From the IMG/VR virus record IMGVR_UViG_3300031673_000001: a stretch of 64,000 bases of DNA; one strand, written 5' to 3'. Each line of letters opens with the position of its first letter. Positions within the stretch are counted from its first letter, which is position 1. Both the position numbers and the translations under genes were made by a program. Shown piece by piece: positions 52,718 through 56,992 of this stretch. A model generated the notes under the pieces. It had not been told where the DNA came from and searched no databases. It saw only the letters and a list, made by a program, of their open reading frames with translations. Source of the DNA: a virus (lineage: Duplodnaviria > Caudoviricetes).

Positions 52718-53311
52718 ATGAGCGGTTTAGAAGCTTTATGTGGCGATTCAATCATTCCACCTGAAATGGATAACTATGAAGAAGATGTTGATAAATACAA
52801 TGATGTTGCTAGTTTTAGATATTCCGCTCTTGATATAATAAACTCTGTTGGATTAGAAAATTTTAAAGAACTATATATGGTTCAAATTGATGTTGTTAAA
52901 AATGAAACTCTACATGCACAAAGAACATTTCTTATTGAAATGCAACAAAAGATAAGCGAAATATATGACTGGGAATTTTCTGATGAGTGGGGATTAGTTG
53001 ATACTACATATCAACAAGAACAATTATATAAATTTATAGAATTTCTTGAATTTGATAACTATTTATTTCTATCTTATGTTTGGAAATTTTTACTTGATGA
53101 TCCTTTAAAACTTATGAAGCTTAATATTAAAGAATTCTGTAAATTAAATGAAATGAGGATTATTAAAGAAACAGAAGAACAATTAGAAATACATTCTCAA
53201 AATCAATTAGTTAATATATTTTTAAAAACTTTTTATAAAGAGAAGTATATTGAATGGTTTATAAAGAATACAAGCAAAAATAAAACCGTTATTATTACTG
53301 AAATTATGTAG
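52718..53311 (+). CDS. Hypothetical protein
   Basis: 197-aa ORF with GGAGG RBS. Confidence 0.6.
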   Translation: MSGLEALCGDSIIPPEMDNYEEDVDKYNDVASFRYSALDIINSVGLENFKELYMVQIDVVKNETLHAQRTFLIEMQQKISEIYDWEFSDEWGLVDTTYQQEQLYKFIEFLEFDNYLFLSYVWKFLLDDPLKLMKLNIKEFCKLNEMRIIKETEEQLEIHSQNQLVNIFLKTFYKEKYIEWFIKNTSKNKTVIITEIM

Positions 53312-53403
53312 TAAAATTTAAGTTTCTAACTGACTAAAATTTTTAGTTGATTTAAAATTTTTTTAGAACAAAAAAATAAACTGAATTGTGAGAGGAGAGA
53401 AGA

Positions 53404-53661
53404 ATGGCAGAACCTATAATTAAAATTACGAAAGGTAATGTTGTTATAACAGGACCTAAATCTGAATTAGTTGAAGTATCCGAAACCCATGATGGTATAG
53501 CATTTAACTTCAAACGTGGTTTACAGGTGTATCAAGTTGAACAGTTCATGCCGACTCATATAAAACAACTTATCAAAAATACAACTGACTCATTTGAAGG
53601 AAATAATATTATTATAGATTTGGATAATGCTAGAAAACCTGTTATGGTTGATGCTACCTAA
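53404..53661 (+). CDS. Hypothetical protein
   Basis: 85-aa ORF with AGGAG RBS. Confidence 0.6.
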   Translation: MAEPIIKITKGNVVITGPKSELVEVSETHDGIAFNFKRGLQVYQVEQFMPTHIKQLIKNTTDSFEGNNIIIDLDNARKPVMVDAT

Positions 53662-53680
53662 TTCATTTTAAAGAAAATGT

Positions 53681-53694
53681 CTATATATATTAAT
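53681..53694 (+). promoter_or_regulatory. CTATATATATTAAT promoter-like motif, copy 4
   Basis: Exact copy upstream of RNA unit 1. Confidence 0.65.
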
Positions 53695-53730
53695 AAGTGA
53701 TAATATATGATTTGACTTATTTTTTTCAAT

Positions 53731-53829
53731 TTCTGGGAGGACTTGATATAATTTCAGAACTGTGTAATTACAGTGCCATTAAGGGGATTAAATTCCCTGA
53801 CATTAAATTACATCTTCTGCTTCCCAGAA
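53731..53829 (+). ncRNA. Array RNA unit 1 (type A)
   Basis: Terminal stem TTCTGGGAGG/CTTCCCAGAA, core ACTTGATATAATTTCAGAAC, and internal hairpins CTGTGTAATTACAG and GGGGATTAAATTCCCT. Confidence 0.65.
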
Positions 53830-53848
53830 AACATTTAAGAAAAAACAT

Positions 53849-53862
53849 CTATATATATTAAT
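53849..53862 (+). promoter_or_regulatory. CTATATATATTAAT promoter-like motif, copy 5
   Basis: Exact copy upstream of RNA unit 2. TTTGACTT follows, as in copy 4. Confidence 0.65.
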
Positions 53863-53895
53863 AGGTGTAATAAAAATTTGACTTGTATTTTTAGT

Positions 53896-54004
53896 TTCCA
53901 AGAAGACTTTATGTAATTTCAGAGCTGATTGGTTCAGCATCTTACTTGAAATGAGACGTGAGGGTTCGATTCCCTATTTTAGTTACATCTATTACTTCTT
54001 GGAA
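53896..54004 (+). ncRNA. Array RNA unit 2 (type A) with tRNA-like D, anticodon and T arms
   Basis: Stems TTCCAAGAAG/CTTCTTGGAA and ATGTAA/TTACAT. Arms GCTG-ATTGGTT-CAGC, TCTTA-CTTGAAA-TGAGA and AGGG-TTCGATT-CCCT. Confidence 0.75.
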
Positions 54005-54015
54005 TCATTTTTATT

Positions 54016-54086
54016 TGGGGACAATAAAGAGAATTAACTTAATACAAGCGTTGGCCCGCCCGGATTAAATTAGTTCTCTGTCCCCA
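54016..54086 (+). ncRNA. Array RNA unit 3 (type B)
   Basis: TGGGGACA/TGTCCCCA and GAGAATTA/TAGTTCTC stems around a GC-rich loop. Confidence 0.55.
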
Positions 54087-54094
54087 CCAATTTT

Positions 54095-54177
54095 AGATGA
54101 GAAGACTTTATGTAGTTTCAGAAAAAATACAATTGGCGTATTCACTATCTACATATTTTTAATAATACTTCTCATCT
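54095..54177 (+). ncRNA. Array RNA unit 4 (type A)
   Basis: AGATGAGAAG/CTTCTCATCT and ATGTAG/CTACAT stems. Core ACTTTATGTAGTTTCAGA. Confidence 0.65.
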
Positions 54178-54184
54178 TTACTTT

Positions 54185-54248
54185 TTCAAAAGACTTTATG
54201 TAATTTCAGAACCGATTGAGTTAATGACTTACATATGCTTCTTTTGAA
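54185..54248 (+). ncRNA. Array RNA unit 5 (type A)
   Basis: TTCAAAAG/CTTTTGAA and ATGTAA/TTACAT stems. Shares 21 identical nt (AAGACTTTATGTAATTTCAGA) with unit 2. Confidence 0.65.
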
Positions 54249-54254
54249 TACATC

Positions 54255-54330
54255 TTGTGAGGACACTGGGTATAACAATTTCAATATCATTCGGGGATCA
54301 TTGTTAATTATACTGATATTGTCCTCACAA
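54255..54330 (+). ncRNA. Array RNA unit 6 (type B)
   Basis: 11-bp TTGTGAGGACA/TGTCCTCACAA plus GTATAA/TTATAC and AACAAT/ATTGTT stems. Confidence 0.55.
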
Positions 54331-54335
54331 TCTTT

Positions 54336-54394
54336 AATGGACTGAGTGTGATTTCAGAACTCGCAGAGAAGTTTCAATTACACTCAACTCCATT
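54336..54394 (+). ncRNA. Array RNA unit 7 (type A)
   Basis: AATGGA/TCCATT and GAGTGTGATT/AATTACACTC stems, followed by TCAGAAC. Confidence 0.6.
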
Positions 54395-54490
54395 TTTTTG
54401 AAAGGAAAGTAATGAAATTCCTTAAACCAAAAATATTAGATATCATTGCTTTACGTTGGTTGTTAAAAACTAAAATAAAGGAGAAGCTAA

Positions 54491-56014
54491 ATGCCAATAG
54501 GGGAACTGGGAATCATTGATTCGGGAATTTTACAATTCGCCCCGAAGGGAGCTTATTATGAAGAAAAGGATGAACAATATCAAGCAGTTAAAAACATGTG
54601 GATGCAATTATTAGATTACGACAGAACCTTATTCTCTTTAGTAATGTTATTAAATGGCACTGGTTTCTCTAAAGGAGCTATGAGTCACATCCTATTATCA
54701 AATAGTATAAAGAATGTGAATAATCTACCAGCAATTACAGATGGATTACCAGAAGAATTTGAAAAGGAGATTATTAGATATAATCTCTATAAAGAGAGAA
54801 CACCAAGAGCATTGAAAAATCTATTAATGTTGGCAGGGGAAGAAGGACATAAAAAAATAAATAATTCAAAAACCAGAAAAATTATTTTGGAGTTCATCTT
54901 CAATCGAGATAATAAAAGTCTTGATTATCTTGCTGTAAATTATAAGATTAAACTTCAAAAACTAATTAAACATGCTCTTGGAAAGCAAGATCTCTATAAA
55001 ATTTTAAATGGAAGCAATAGTGATACTATATTTAGAAAAAATATTGGCAGATACAATAATCATTCTTTTCCAGTTGTATGCCATATATTCAATAAACCTA
55101 TTCCTTCCGGAACTTTCTTTCCAATGATTCAAAAGTATTATGAACTCAAAGATGCAGCAAAAATTGGAAATCTTGTTGAATTTAGAAAGCATATGAAAGG
55201 TTTTCCAGAAAGAACCGTTATGGGAATGAGAAATTTATATAAACTTGATATTCCCATATCTGATATAAAGAATGATACCCAGAAATCAGAGAAAGATAAA
55301 ATTCAAGGAATAGCAGCAGCAAAACGAGCTGGTGCAAAGAAAGTAGATATTAATTATAAAAAACAAGATATCTATGATCTATTCAAGCTTCTATATTTTA
55401 AACTCAACACTAAAGATGAAGAGGATGTTGATAAAATAATAGAAGCAATGGATTATGTTACAGATAATATGATCAAACTTGATATTGGAGAGTGTATAGT
55501 TATTATGGATGCCTCTCATTCAATGTTTGGAAGTGAAGAAAGACCAATGCATCCATTTTTAACTGGACTGTGCATTATTGCAAACCTCGACAATGTAAAA
55601 GATATAATATATGTTGGAGGACAAGCAATTAAATTTTCAACAATTAATCCAGGAGTTATAATACCAAAGAATTATACAGATCTCTGGAGAGCATTAATTA
55701 AAGCAGTCTCAAAAGGTGTTGAAAATATAGTTATTATTTCTGATGGTTATGAAAATTCTATTAAAGGGATGTTCGGGCACGTATATAAGCATTTGAAGGA
55801 GACAGGATATAATTTTAAATTAACACATCTCAATCCTGTATTTTCAGCTGGATCCTTAACAGGAACCTCAATAAGATTAACAGAGGATGTTAGACCATTT
55901 CCAGTTGGAGATTATAAGTTTCTTGAAACTGAAATAATCTTTTCTAAACTTATCGAAGATAAAGATATGGTTAGAAAATTATTAATATCAAAATATAAAA
56001 GTCTGATTCAATGA
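54491..56014 (+). CDS. TROVE/Ro60-like protein with C-terminal vWA domain
   Basis: Helical N-terminal region. The vWA MIDAS motifs IVIMDASHSMFG and VIISDGYEN are clear; the TROVE relationship is inferred from architecture and context. Confidence 0.55.
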   Translation: MPIGELGIIDSGILQFAPKGAYYEEKDEQYQAVKNMWMQLLDYDRTLFSLVMLLNGTGFSKGAMSHILLSNSIKNVNNLPAITDGLPEEFEKEIIRYNLYKERTPRALKNLLMLAGEEGHKKINNSKTRKIILEFIFNRDNKSLDYLAVNYKIKLQKLIKHALGKQDLYKILNGSNSDTIFRKNIGRYNNHSFPVVCHIFNKPIPSGTFFPMIQKYYELKDAAKIGNLVEFRKHMKGFPERTVMGMRNLYKLDIPISDIKNDTQKSEKDKIQGIAAAKRAGAKKVDINYKKQDIYDLFKLLYFKLNTKDEEDVDKIIEAMDYVTDNMIKLDIGECIVIMDASHSMFGSEERPMHPFLTGLCIIANLDNVKDIIYVGGQAIKFSTINPGVIIPKNYTDLWRALIKAVSKGVENIVIISDGYENSIKGMFGHVYKHLKETGYNFKLTHLNPVFSAGSLTGTSIRLTEDVRPFPVGDYKFLETEIIFSKLIEDKDMVRKLLISKYKSLIQ

Positions 56015-56023
56015 GGAGAACTT

Positions 56024-56992
56024 ATGTCAATTTTTAGAATATTAAAATTTTCAGATGAAGATATTGGAGCTGGAAGTATTCAGGGTGTAGATGAAATGAC
56101 AGTGGTGCCTCTCATTGGTGAAAATCTAGGTAATGTAGCAGAACCACTTTCATTAAAATTCAAACGAACGGATAGTTATGGTTCCATGGTATATGAAAAT
56201 ACAGATAAGGAACTATCCGGAATTATTCCTACAAACATAATGGTTAGAGGATTTAATGCTCAAGATCATGCAATGGCAGGTTCAGGAATAATTACAGCAA
56301 ATAAAACAACAAAATTCACTAATGCATGCTGTATTGAATCAGGTCAGGGAGGATATCTACAAGATAAAGGTAATGATTATGATATCTTACCAATTGAGCT
56401 TCGTAAAAATCTCTTACCATTAAAAATGAGAGACAAGAATAGATATGATAAATTATGGCCAGACATTTCAAAATGGTTAGCTGGCACAGGAGTTTCTAAA
56501 TCAATAATGCAGTCACATTTAAGATATTTCTATGATAATCCTCAAATAAAGGAATCTCTTGAAGAGTTTTCTGCTTCCTTTGAACCAGTATCTAATCAGA
56601 TTGGAGCTGTCATATTATTTAAAGACAAAGTTGTTGGAATAGAAATTATGCCAAGTGTTCAACATTGGGAAAGTTATTGGAAGTTATTAATTCGAGGATG
56701 TTACGGCGCCGAGTTATTGAGACTTAAAAAACTTGGCAAAATTAATTCATCTCTTAAACTACCAAAATTTAAGAAGGGTGATAAGGTGGAACATCTAGAA
56801 CTAATTGTTGATAATTTTTTACATGATATTAGAAAAGATATTTTACAAATAATAGATAATATTAAAATAAAAAATGCCTCAATATTAAATAAAATTGAGA
56901 ATTTTGAAACTATATTAATAGAAACAGATTCAGGTGGTGGGGATCTTATAACTCAAGATAAAAAACCTATATATCTTTCACTGGTTCTCTAA
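56024..56992 (+). CDS. ARPP/DUF6569-like protein
   Basis: QGVDEMTVVPL, AQDHAM, ACCIESGQGG, FEPVSNQIGAVI, GIEIMPS. Family recalled from memory, not searched. Confidence 0.5.
   Translation: MSIFRILKFSDEDIGAGSIQGVDEMTVVPLIGENLGNVAEPLSLKFKRTDSYGSMVYENTDKELSGIIPTNIMVRGFNAQDHAMAGSGIITANKTTKFTNACCIESGQGGYLQDKGNDYDILPIELRKNLLPLKMRDKNRYDKLWPDISKWLAGTGVSKSIMQSHLRYFYDNPQIKESLEEFSASFEPVSNQIGAVILFKDKVVGIEIMPSVQHWESYWKLLIRGCYGAELLRLKKLGKINSSLKLPKFKKGDKVEHLELIVDNFLHDIRKDILQIIDNIKIKNASILNKIENFETILIETDSGGGDLITQDKKPIYLSLVL

What the first reader, a model, noticed from the sequence alone, without database searches (positions are those of the whole stretch)
53896..54004. tRNA mimic with D, anticodon (UGA) and T arms but a repeat helix instead of an acceptor stem
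Seen: a D arm with GG, a 5-bp anticodon stem with loop CUUGAAA, a short variable region and a canonical TTCGATT T loop, in normal tRNA order, with no acceptor pairing and no CCA. Unit 1 looks like a reduced version with only D-like and T-like hairpins. Established: YrlA Y RNAs mimic tRNA but use the anticodon-equivalent stem for Ro binding. Here the anticodon loop is kept and exposed. Inference: a non-chargeable decoy or bait for anticodon nucleases or tRNA-modifying enzymes, possibly derived from a captured tRNA.
Basis: partly seen in the sequence, partly recalled or inferred. Interest (0 to 1): 0.75.

Follow-up and report, generated by a model that had tools for sequence, protein, structure and literature searches.

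The report
Phage Y-like RNA carrying tRNA mimic
One of five small RNAs in front of a giant phage's Ro60-like gene mounts a tRNA look-alike with no acceptor stem on a shared helical handle, so it looks like a new branch of the known Ro60/Y-RNA particles rather than a stand-alone decoy; this scan has met the same module before.

Summary
53896-54004 folds into a 10-bp outer stem, a conserved internal loop, an 8-bp inner stem, then a D arm, a 5-bp anticodon arm (loop CUUGAAA) and a T arm (UUCGAUU). It has no acceptor pairing (0 of 7) and no CCA. It is not a decayed tRNA: 20 relatives of this type keep all five helices, and 22 of 28 pairs show compensatory changes.

The "repeat helix" is a conserved handle (G-ACUU-inner stem-UCAGA). 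A covariance model finds it exactly 5 times in the window. It finds it 248 times in 87 related loci, always on the strand of a 507-aa gene and almost always just upstream of it. That gene's predicted fold matches only Ro60/TROVE proteins, and an ARPP-1 gene always follows it.

The best reading is a Y-RNA-like scaffold RNA: the handle is the likely Ro60-like docking site and the tRNA mimic is the effector module. The wiring is that of Deinococcus Yrn1 (D, anticodon, T), not YrlA.

The anticodon triplet is not conserved: the closest relative has UGU, and the triplet drifts as fast as the variable loop. A sequence-specific anticodon-nuclease bait is therefore unsupported, though not excluded.

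RNA expression and protein binding are untested. This scan has already reported the same module on this genome and on at least five other genomes.

The parts
53680..53695 (+). Phage promoter-like motif TCTATATATATTAATA ahead of unit 1
   Evidence: The same 16-mer, with 0-2 mismatches, lies at five + strand sites that are intergenic by the ORF list (6669, 39441, 41097, 53680, 53848). Function as a promoter is inferred.
53730..53831 (+). Unit 1: handle carrying a reduced cargo (D-like and T-like hairpins, no anticodon arm)
   Evidence: R1 hit at 53732-53828, 45.5 bits, E 4e-9. Fold -31.8 kcal/mol, z -4.4. Absent from the closest relative L013.
53848..53863 (+). Second copy of the promoter-like motif, ahead of unit 2
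   Evidence: The same motif precedes the U2 orthologue in L013.
53896..54004 (+). Unit 2 (the finding): handle plus tRNA mimic. Outer stem 53896-53905/53995-54004; loop ACUUU 53906-53910 opposite CUAUUA 53989-53994; inner stem 53911-53918/53981-53988; UCAGA 53919-53923; D arm 53924-53938; anticodon arm 53940-53956 (triplet UGA 53947-53949); variable region 53957-53960; T arm 53961-53975; 3' linker 53976-53980
   Evidence: (51.8 bits, E 1e-10, 53-nt insert).
54016..54088 (+). Hairpin H-A without the handle motif, lying between units 2 and 3
   Evidence: Fold -27.9 kcal/mol, z -5.1. L013 has a different long hairpin at this position.
54095..54177 (+). Unit 3: handle with a small cargo
   Evidence: R1 38.5 bits, E 2.5e-7. 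Fold z -3.3.
54184..54249 (+). Unit 4: handle with minimal cargo
   Evidence: R1 61 bits (this unit was in the training set). Fold z -3.8.
54255..54330 (+). Hairpin H-B without the handle motif; its core UUCGGGGAUCAUUG recurs in relatives
   Evidence: Fold z -4.3. The core is found in 9 loci. Its outer stem covaries with the L013 copy.
54332..54399 (+). Unit 5: handle with small cargo, followed by a run of seven U (terminator-like)
   Evidence: R1 50.9 bits, E 2e-10. The U run is also present in the close relatives L013, L014 and L016, but only in 17 of 66 arrays overall.
54491..56014 (+). 507-aa Ro60-like protein (helical-repeat ring plus vWA domain with a DxSxS motif), the presumed partner of the handle
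   Evidence: AlphaFold2 model with pLDDT 82. The top 13 Foldseek PDB hits are all Ro60/TROVE, E 5e-6 to 9e-4. D340, S342 and S344 are invariant. No Pfam or PDB sequence hit.
56024..56992 (+). ARPP-1 family protein, always next to the Ro60-like gene
   Evidence: Pfam PF20208, E 2.5e-20. Present in 89 of 93 loci; the other four loci end within or just after the Ro60-like gene. Also present beside distant homologues.

Best explanation
Unit 2 is one member of a tandem array of Y-RNA-like scaffold RNAs that serve the Ro60-like protein encoded directly downstream.

Each RNA pairs its 5' and 3' ends into a common handle. The handle has a variable, covarying outer stem, a conserved asymmetric internal loop (5' ACUU, 3' NNNUA), a semi-conserved inner stem, and the single-stranded motif UCAGA. 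The handle is the likely docking site for the Ro60-like ring. This step is inferred, by analogy to the bulged helix of Y RNAs.

The insert at the top of the handle is an exchangeable effector module. In unit 2 it is a tRNA core: a D/T-loop elbow plus a free anticodon arm. The handle takes the acceptor-stem position, so the RNA cannot be charged.

By analogy to Yrn1 and YrlA, the tRNA-shaped module most likely does one of two things. It may recruit a tRNA-recognising host or phage factor (an exoribonuclease such as PNPase, or a modification or repair enzyme) to the Ro60-like/ARPP particle, or it may gate access to the ring.

Shown: the structure, its conservation, and its strict linkage to the gene pair. 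Inferred: transcription, protein binding, and the identity of the factor that reads the tRNA shape.
For: 1. Handle family. Model R1 (17 pairs, 14 with compensatory changes) finds exactly 5 units in 64 kb, all at 53732-54398. It finds 248 units in 87 related loci, all on the + strand of the Ro60-like gene. A motif count gives 256 on + against 2 on -.

2. Outer stems pair with their own partner at -10.1 kcal/mol, against -3.5 with foreign partners; there are 180 distinct arms. G-U pairs occur in the stems, which argues for RNA rather than DNA structure.

3. The downstream protein has a Ro60 fold: the top 13 PDB hits are all Ro60/TROVE, including a phage Ro60.

4. Linkage survives deep divergence and rearrangement.
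- In L084 and L091 (44% identity) the units sit between the Ro60-like and ARPP genes.
- Handle-like RNAs with GACUU and UCAGA lie upstream of distant homologues in other gene contexts: L094 (E 0.012), L093 in a Microscillaceae genome bin, and L097/L098, the last by eye only.

5. The layout matches known systems: several Y RNAs upstream of the Ro gene on the same strand, one tRNA-like and others plain hairpins (PMC4201824; phage phiLo Yrl1/Yrl2, PMC12135203).

6. The tRNA core is selected. 96.8% of cells are paired, against 71% in shuffles and about 43% when partners are slid, and 22 of 28 pairs are compensatory. GG in the D loop and UUCRANY in the T loop are kept. The D stem is almost invariant at 0.02 changes per site; YrlA RNAs likewise have conserved D- and T-stem nucleotides (10.1101/312249).

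7. A phage promoter-like motif precedes units 1 and 2.
Against: - No RNA data exist for this phage, so transcription, RNA ends and processing are unknown.
- Binding of the handle to the Ro60-like protein is inferred only.
- The canonical bacterial Ro-binding motif GNCGAAN0-1G is absent, and Rfam's Y RNA and YrlA models do not match.
- The protein is Ro60-like by fold only (TM about 0.47), with no sequence match to TROVE.
- Gene order is conserved across the whole lineage (orf197-orf85-array-Ro-ARPP-orf205). Within that lineage, adjacency alone is therefore weak evidence.
- One distant homologue, L095, has no recognisable RNA upstream.
Confidence: 0.65

Rival explanations
1. Decoy or bait. The exposed anticodon arm on a non-chargeable body soaks up, or reports, host anticodon nucleases or tRNA-modifying enzymes. 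This could work alone or while held by the Ro60-like/ARPP particle.
For: - A 5-bp anticodon stem with a 7-nt loop is kept with full covariation.
- U33, purine 37 and A38 are conserved.
- The RNA is not chargeable.
- Triplets are very diverse (21 kinds in 61 modules), which could reflect an arms race.
- The module is phage-borne, and tRNA-targeting host defences are well known (my own knowledge).
Against: - The triplet changes at the rate of the unconstrained variable loop (0.40 against 0.42 per site). It differs between the two closest relatives (UGA and UGU). This fits drift as well as an arms race.
- The same handle carries cargoes with no anticodon arm at all: unit 1 here and L012:2494-2622 (read by eye).
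- There is one copy per array, which makes a poor stoichiometric sponge.
- No nuclease or host is known for this phage.
Confidence: 0.13
2. Cis-acting leader. The array is the 5' leader of the Ro60-like/ARPP operon. The handles are sites where the protein feeds back on its own expression, through termination at unit 5 or through transcript stability.
For: - The array lies on the same strand within 100 nt of the gene.
- Unit 5 is followed by a run of seven U in this phage and its close relatives.
- No separate promoter-like motif lies between unit 5 and the gene.
Against: - The U run is absent in most arrays (17 of 66).
- In L084 and L091 the units lie after the Ro60-like gene.
- Five to seven elaborate units, some with complete tRNA mimics, are far more than an attenuator needs.
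- Known Ro60 systems have the same layout with trans-acting Y RNAs (PMC4201824).
Confidence: 0.1
3. tRNA-gene remnant or processing scaffold. Unit 2 is a decaying tRNA, or the long helices are RNase III-type processing stems for a tRNA-like precursor array.
For: - Some sister units (type C) hold complete tRNAs with a 6-7-bp acceptor stem, mostly followed by NCCA. ARAGORN calls several units in these arrays tRNAs.
- The helices are long enough for RNase III (my own knowledge).
Against: - Unit 2 has 0 of 7 acceptor pairs.
- The acceptor-less design is kept in at least 20 relatives down to about 50% protein identity, with compensatory changes in every arm. That is the opposite of decay.
- The handle has conserved unpaired motifs (ACUU, UCAGA) that a plain processing stem does not need.
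Confidence: 0.07

Closest known systems
Deinococcus radiodurans Yrn1 (Y RNA bound by Rsr; Chen et al. 2014, PMC4201824)
   Same: - The 5' and 3' ends pair into the protein-binding stem.
- The apical module is modelled as a D-like loop, a 5-bp 'anticodon arm' and a T arm in tRNA order, so the stem takes the acceptor position.
- It is encoded upstream of the Ro gene with other small RNAs, as a polycistronic set.
   Different: - Yrn1 has a 6-nt loop, no clear D arm and no variable region. Unit 2 has a full D arm, a 7-nt loop with U33 and A37, and a 4-nt variable region.
- Yrn1 keeps the metazoan-type Ro-binding box; the handle here has ACUU and UCAGA instead.
- The protein here is Ro60-like by fold only.
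YrlA (Salmonella, M. smegmatis, mycobacteriophages; PMC4201824; structure in 10.1101/312249)
   Same: - A tRNA-mimicking Y RNA next to a Ro60 gene on the same strand.
- D/T-loop elbow kept, no free CCA end, and conserved D/T-stem nucleotides.
- A second, plainer Y RNA lies beside it.
   Different: - YrlA is wired T arm, closed acceptor-like stem-loop, D arm, with the Ro stem in place of the anticodon stem. Unit 2 is wired D, anticodon, T, with the handle in place of the acceptor stem.
- YrlA's 5' GNCGAAN0-1G motif is absent here.
- There is no Rfam match.
Thermus phage phiLo Ro60 with Yrl1/Yrl2 (PMC12135203; PDB 9KOP, 9L5Y)
   Same: - A phage-encoded Ro60-type ring with Y-like RNAs just upstream of its gene.
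- The phiLo protein is among the top fold matches of the 507-aa protein.
   Different: - The phiLo RNAs were found through a CGAA motif and are not described as tRNA-like.
- Two RNAs there, against five handle units plus two other hairpins here.
- That paper, searched only for Y-RNA terms, showed no ARPP partner.
Canonical tRNA (Rfam RF00005)
   Same: D arm with GG, 5-bp anticodon stem with a 7-nt loop, short variable region and a UUCGAUU T loop, all in the normal order.
   Different: No acceptor stem, no discriminator or CCA, 25 bits against a gathering score of 29, and not called by ARAGORN.

Membership tests
tRNA (Rfam RF00005) | 7-bp acceptor stem with discriminator and CCA end | tested here: not met
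   0 of 7 pairs in register and no CCA. The Rfam alignment covers model positions 9-63 only.
tRNA (Rfam RF00005) | D, anticodon and T arms in order, with conserved loop residues | tested here: met
   Covariation in 20 relatives.
tRNA (Rfam RF00005) | Score at or above the family's gathering threshold; called by a tRNA finder | tested here: not met
   25 bits against 29. ARAGORN finds 0 genes in the window.
YrlA-type Y RNA | Encoded beside a Ro60 orthologue on the same strand | tested here: met
   The array ends 92 nt before a gene whose model matches only Ro60/TROVE structures. The protein is Ro60-like by fold, not by Pfam TROVE.
YrlA-type Y RNA | 5' GNCGAAN0-1G motif (the presumed Ro contact) | tested here: not met
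   The 5' strand of the handle reads (A/G)GACUUUAUGUAAUUUCAGA with no CGAA.
YrlA-type Y RNA | Order T arm, acceptor-like stem-loop, D arm, with the Ro stem at the anticodon position | tested here: not met
   The order here is D, anticodon, T, with the handle at the acceptor position. The definition is from PMC4201824.
YrlA-type Y RNA | Match to a curated Rfam Y RNA or YrlA model | tested here: not met
   No such hit even at E up to 10. I assume, but did not verify, that Rfam release 15 holds these models.
Y RNA (functional class) | Termini pair into a long stem interrupted by a conserved bulge or internal loop; variable apical module; several paralogues per genome | tested here: met
Y RNA (functional class) | Bound by the Ro60 protein | not testable with these tools
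   No RNA-protein prediction or binding data are available. Linkage across distant homologues is indirect support only.
Y RNA (functional class) | Expressed as a stable small RNA | not testable with these tools
   No RNA run lists this stretch.
Ro60/TROVE (the partner protein) | Ring of helical repeats plus a C-terminal vWA domain with a MIDAS motif | tested here: met
   The model shows helices over residues 1-326 and then an alpha/beta domain. Full-length Foldseek matches go to Ro60 only. DxSxS is invariant (D340, S342, S344).
Ro60/TROVE (the partner protein) | Sequence match to Pfam TROVE or to solved Ro60 chains | tested here: not met
   No Pfam family. No PDB sequence hit with the profile. 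Ten distant homologues also lack it.

The most novel reading that the evidence does not exclude
The array is a set of interchangeable tRNA-shaped adaptors on one handle. With them, a phage Ro60-like/ARPP particle could capture, shield or repair tRNAs damaged by host defence (cleaved or chemically tagged), or trap the host enzymes that attack tRNAs. Unit 2's free anticodon arm would be the part that those enzymes engage. This would be a phage counter-defence ribonucleoprotein with exchangeable RNA baits.
Probability: 0.15. Interest if true: 0.85.

Novelty: new variant of a known kind. Interest (0 to 1): 0.6.

Why it matters
Ro60/Y-RNA particles are known from animals, some bacteria and a few phages, and what the tRNA-like part of bacterial Y RNAs binds is still an open question (PMC4201824, 10.1101/312249).

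This family offers a large natural experiment on that question:
- It has hundreds of units on one handle.
- The tRNA mimics are wired in three ways: no acceptor, closed acceptor with NCCA in the loop, and a full tRNA.
- They sit beside a Ro60-like protein that sequence models miss and an ARPP enzyme-like partner.

The contrast between an almost invariant D stem and a free-running anticodon triplet says where to look for the contact surface. If the handle does bind the ring, the known range of Ro60 particles widens considerably, and giant phages gain an RNA-surveillance or counter-defence module.

In the paper library I searched, no paper linked ARPP with TROVE/Ro60.

Tried and rejected
Searches that found nothing:
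- ARAGORN on the window: no tRNA.
- Rfam at gathering thresholds: nothing in 64 kb.
- blastn of 53000-55000 against the phage collection: no match.
- Exact 21-mer handle motif in viral contigs: none.
- Whole-genome search: no genome is held for this window.
- Single-protein locus search in viral contigs: none confirmed. The alignment-based search then worked.
- Pfam and PHROGs on the 507-aa and 85-aa ORFs: nothing.
- PDB sequence search with the profile: nothing.

Other points:
- Sequencing runs: no RNA holder is listed, so expression could not be examined.
- DNA contigs of four sediment runs showed only strain variants. One strain changes the variable region and turns a G-U pair of the anticodon stem into A-U while keeping the loop. 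They also showed swapped array content in related phages.
- Sigma-70 promoter and terminator scan: not above shuffles. Its one 'terminator' is the D arm itself.
- A general terminator role for the last unit is rejected as a family feature: a U run follows in only 17 of 66 arrays.
- I looked for 15:48 Levitt-pair covariation. My indexing was too rough to say anything.
- The distant homologue L095 has only a 111-nt AT-rich spacer and no handle.
- A DNA-level repeat (cruciform, protein-binding site or mobile element) is rejected. The evidence is the strand bias of 248 to 0, the G-U pairs, and the promoter-like motif upstream.

Full report
**What is there**

The window is AT-rich (about 30% G+C). 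It belongs to an uncultured large phage with its own multisubunit RNA polymerase and has no close relative among deposited phages.

Between an 85-aa ORF (ends 53661) and a 507-aa ORF (starts 54491) lie 829 non-coding bases. They hold five hairpin units that share a 5' module, consensus GACUUUAUGUAAUUUCAGA(A/G)C:
- U1 53730-53831
- U2 53896-54004, the finding
- U3 54095-54177
- U4 54184-54249
- U5 54332-54399

Two other long hairpins without that module lie at 54016-54088 and 54255-54330. All seven fold better than shuffles, with z from -2.9 to -5.1.

**The observation**

It has a 10-bp outer stem, the unpaired ACUUU opposite CUAUUA, an 8-bp inner stem and UCAGA. Then come a D arm with GG, a 5-bp anticodon stem with loop CUUGAAA, a 4-nt variable region and a T arm with loop UUCGAUU.

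Rfam's tRNA model aligns positions 9-63 only, at 25 bits, below the threshold of 29. ARAGORN finds nothing. In the tRNA register, none of seven acceptor pairs can form and there is no CCA.

**The 'repeat helix' is a conserved RNA handle**

I aligned 32 short units from 32 loci (A2). RNAalifold gave an 8-bp outer stem, a 4-nt 5' bulge (ACUU), a 5-nt 3' loop and a 9-bp inner stem. Of the 17 pairs, 14 show compensatory changes.

The covariance model R1 built from this alignment finds exactly the five units in the 64-kb window, at E 5e-13 to 2.5e-7. Four of them were not in the training set. U2 scores 51.8 bits with a 53-nt insertion where the tRNA core sits.

Across 87 related loci (450 kb, both strands) R1 finds 248 units at E up to 1e-3. 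Every one is on the strand of the 507-aa gene's homologue. A plain motif count gives 256 on + against 2 on -.

Outer-stem arms are highly variable, with 180 distinct arms among 218 units. Yet they pair with their own partner at -10.1 kcal/mol, against -3.5 with other units' partners. G-U pairs in the stems and the strand bias argue for an RNA rather than a DNA structure.

**The neighbour is a Ro60-like protein**

I treated that as a lead and tested it.
- Sequence methods see nothing (Pfam; PDB profile search).
- An AlphaFold2 model built from 22 homologues (pLDDT 82) has as its top 13 Foldseek matches only Ro60/TROVE structures: Xenopus, human, Deinococcus Rsr and Thermus phage phiLo. These are full-length alignments with E 5e-6 to 9e-4 and TM about 0.47.
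- The vWA domain keeps an invariant DxSxS motif.
- The next gene is an ARPP-1 family protein.

Ro-like and ARPP are adjacent in 89 of 93 loci; the other four loci end within or just after the Ro-like gene. They are also adjacent beside three distant homologues in otherwise different gene neighbourhoods.

**Does the RNA travel with the protein?**

Within the main lineage the whole block orf197-orf85-array-Ro-ARPP-orf205 is syntenic, so adjacency there is weak evidence. The more telling cases are the diverged ones:
- In L084 and L091 (44% protein identity) the handle units lie between the Ro-like and ARPP genes instead of upstream.
- A 23%-identical homologue in a Microscillaceae genome bin has, upstream, a hairpin with the same G-ACUU bulge, a 9-bp inner stem and a 3' UUCCUA loop.
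- L094 (56% G+C) has GACUU ... UCAGAUU just before the gene, at E 0.012.
- L097 and L098 have two tRNA-like units on a comparable double-stem frame before the gene. This I read by eye.
- One homologue, L095, has none.

Overall this is good indirect support that the handle and the protein belong together. Binding itself is untested.

**The tRNA core is under selection, but the anticodon is not**

Of 218 distinct units, 61 carry D, anticodon and T arms in tRNA order. I aligned twenty units of U2's type (A3). RNAalifold independently recovers the five helices. On that structure:
- 96.8% of cells are paired, against 71.2% in column shuffles and 40-45% when partners are slid.
- 22 of 28 pairs have compensatory changes.
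- All five anticodon-stem pairs covary, with 99% of cells paired.

The family is therefore not a decaying tRNA.

Across 60 modules, U33 is kept in 55, a purine at position 37 in 58 and A38 in 52. The T loop is always UUC(A/G)ANY and the D loop nearly always contains GG. Positions 34-36 use all four bases.

In 101 pairs of modules that are 70-99% identical, changes per site are:
- anticodon triplet 0.40
- variable region 0.42
- anticodon stem 0.34 (compensated)
- T loop 0.14
- D stem 0.02

The closest relative, L013 (80% protein identity), has CUUGUAA where the window has CUUGAAA. A near-identical strain in a sediment run keeps the loop but changes the variable region.

So the loop's shape is selected and the triplet is free. 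The almost invariant D stem points to the elbow side as the recognised surface, much as was proposed for YrlA (10.1101/312249).

**Three wirings on one handle**

Sister units fall into three types:
- Type A, like U2: no acceptor element.
- Type B: after the T arm, a covarying 6-7-bp hairpin whose loop mostly begins with NCCA. This is a closed acceptor mimic, so the whole cloverleaf is present and the handle enters between positions 7 and 8.
- Type C: an ordinary 6-7-bp acceptor stem, mostly followed by NCCA. ARAGORN calls several units of this kind tRNAs, often with odd anticodons.

Other units carry small hairpins only. Array composition varies between relatives. U1 of the window is absent from L013 and looks like a recent duplicate of U2, with its promoter, that lost the anticodon arm.

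**Transcription signals**

A 16-mer, TCTATATATATTAATA, occurs with 0-2 mismatches at five + strand sites in the window that are intergenic by the ORF list. Two of them lie about 50 nt ahead of U1 and U2, and it precedes the U2 orthologue in L013. I read it as a phage promoter element; this is an inference.

U5 is followed by seven U in this phage and its close relatives, but not generally. No RNA sequencing run lists this stretch.

**Comparison with what is known**

Bacterial and phage Ro60 genes are typically preceded, on the same strand, by two or more Y RNAs. One is tRNA-like and another is a plain hairpin, and they are sometimes co-transcribed with a tRNA (PMC4201824). Phage phiLo's Ro60 binds two upstream Y-like RNAs and can engage host PNPase (PMC12135203). 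Jumbo phages with TROVE proteins have also been noted (PMC7824862).

The present array fits that pattern, but it fails the membership tests for YrlA: no GNCGAA motif, different arm order, no Rfam hit. Its wiring is the one Chen et al. describe for Deinococcus Yrn1, where the Ro stem is at the acceptor position and an anticodon-like arm lies between the D-like and T elements. Here, however, the tRNA core is far more complete.

I therefore file it as a Y-RNA-like scaffold RNA of a new, diverged Ro60 branch. It works like a Y RNA but is not a member of the curated families. In the paper library I searched, no paper linked ARPP with TROVE/Ro60.

**Verdict on the interpretation**

- 'Non-chargeable tRNA mimic' is right.
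- 'Derived from a captured tRNA' is plausible, given the type C units that still look like tRNAs, but it is untested.
- 'Decoy for anticodon nucleases' finds no specific support: the triplet drifts, some cargoes lack the arm, and the unit is tied to a Ro60-like protein. A role as bait for enzymes that read the loop's shape is not excluded, and I keep it as the main rival.

**Relation to earlier work in this scan**

The same three-part module (Ro60-like protein, ARPP, tRNA-mimic RNAs on one handle) has already been reported by this scan, on this genome and on at least five others. My analysis was done from the data, and it agrees with those notes.

It adds the following:
- the orthologue series for U2
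- the rate comparison showing a free triplet and a fixed D stem
- the explicit test for acceptor pairing
- the relocated arrays in L084 and L091

Noticed in passing
window 54016-54088 and 54255-54330: Two long hairpin RNAs without the handle motif are interleaved in the array. The core of the second (UUCGGGGAUCAUUG) recurs in 9 loci, with a covarying outer stem in L013. The first is replaced by an unrelated long hairpin in L013.
   Followed up: partly
window 6669, 39441, 41097, 53680, 53848 (+ strand): A 16-mer, TCTATATATATTAATA, with 0-2 mismatches lies at five sites that are intergenic by the ORF list, upstream of + strand genes and of units 1 and 2. It is a likely promoter element for the phage's own transcription machinery.
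   Followed up: partly
L040:2172-2304, L042:2172-2304, L041:2106-2240, L051:2105-2233: Type C units hold complete tRNA-like genes (6-7-bp acceptor stem; NCCA follows in three of these four, L041 has AACAA) nested inside the handle, with anticodon UUA, which would read the UAA stop codon. Other type C units have UUG, UGA, UGG, UCG or CGG.
   Followed up: no
L084:4009-4160 and L091:4009-4159: In a diverged clade (44% protein identity) the handle units sit between the Ro60-like and ARPP genes instead of upstream of the pair.
   Followed up: partly
window 53404-53661 (85 aa) and 52718-53311 (197 aa): Two ORFs with no Pfam or PHROGs match are kept directly upstream of the RNA array in 66 and 57 of the 93 related loci. 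Whether they belong to the module is unknown.
   Followed up: no
L093 (contig of a Microscillaceae genome bin): A 23%-identical Ro60-like gene with an ARPP-like gene downstream and a handle-like hairpin upstream sits in a bacterial genome bin. It may be a prophage, a contaminating phage contig or a cellular copy.
   Followed up: no
window 53697-53861: A 54-codon GTG-started ORF overlaps unit 1. Given the conserved RNA structure it is most likely spurious.
   Followed up: no
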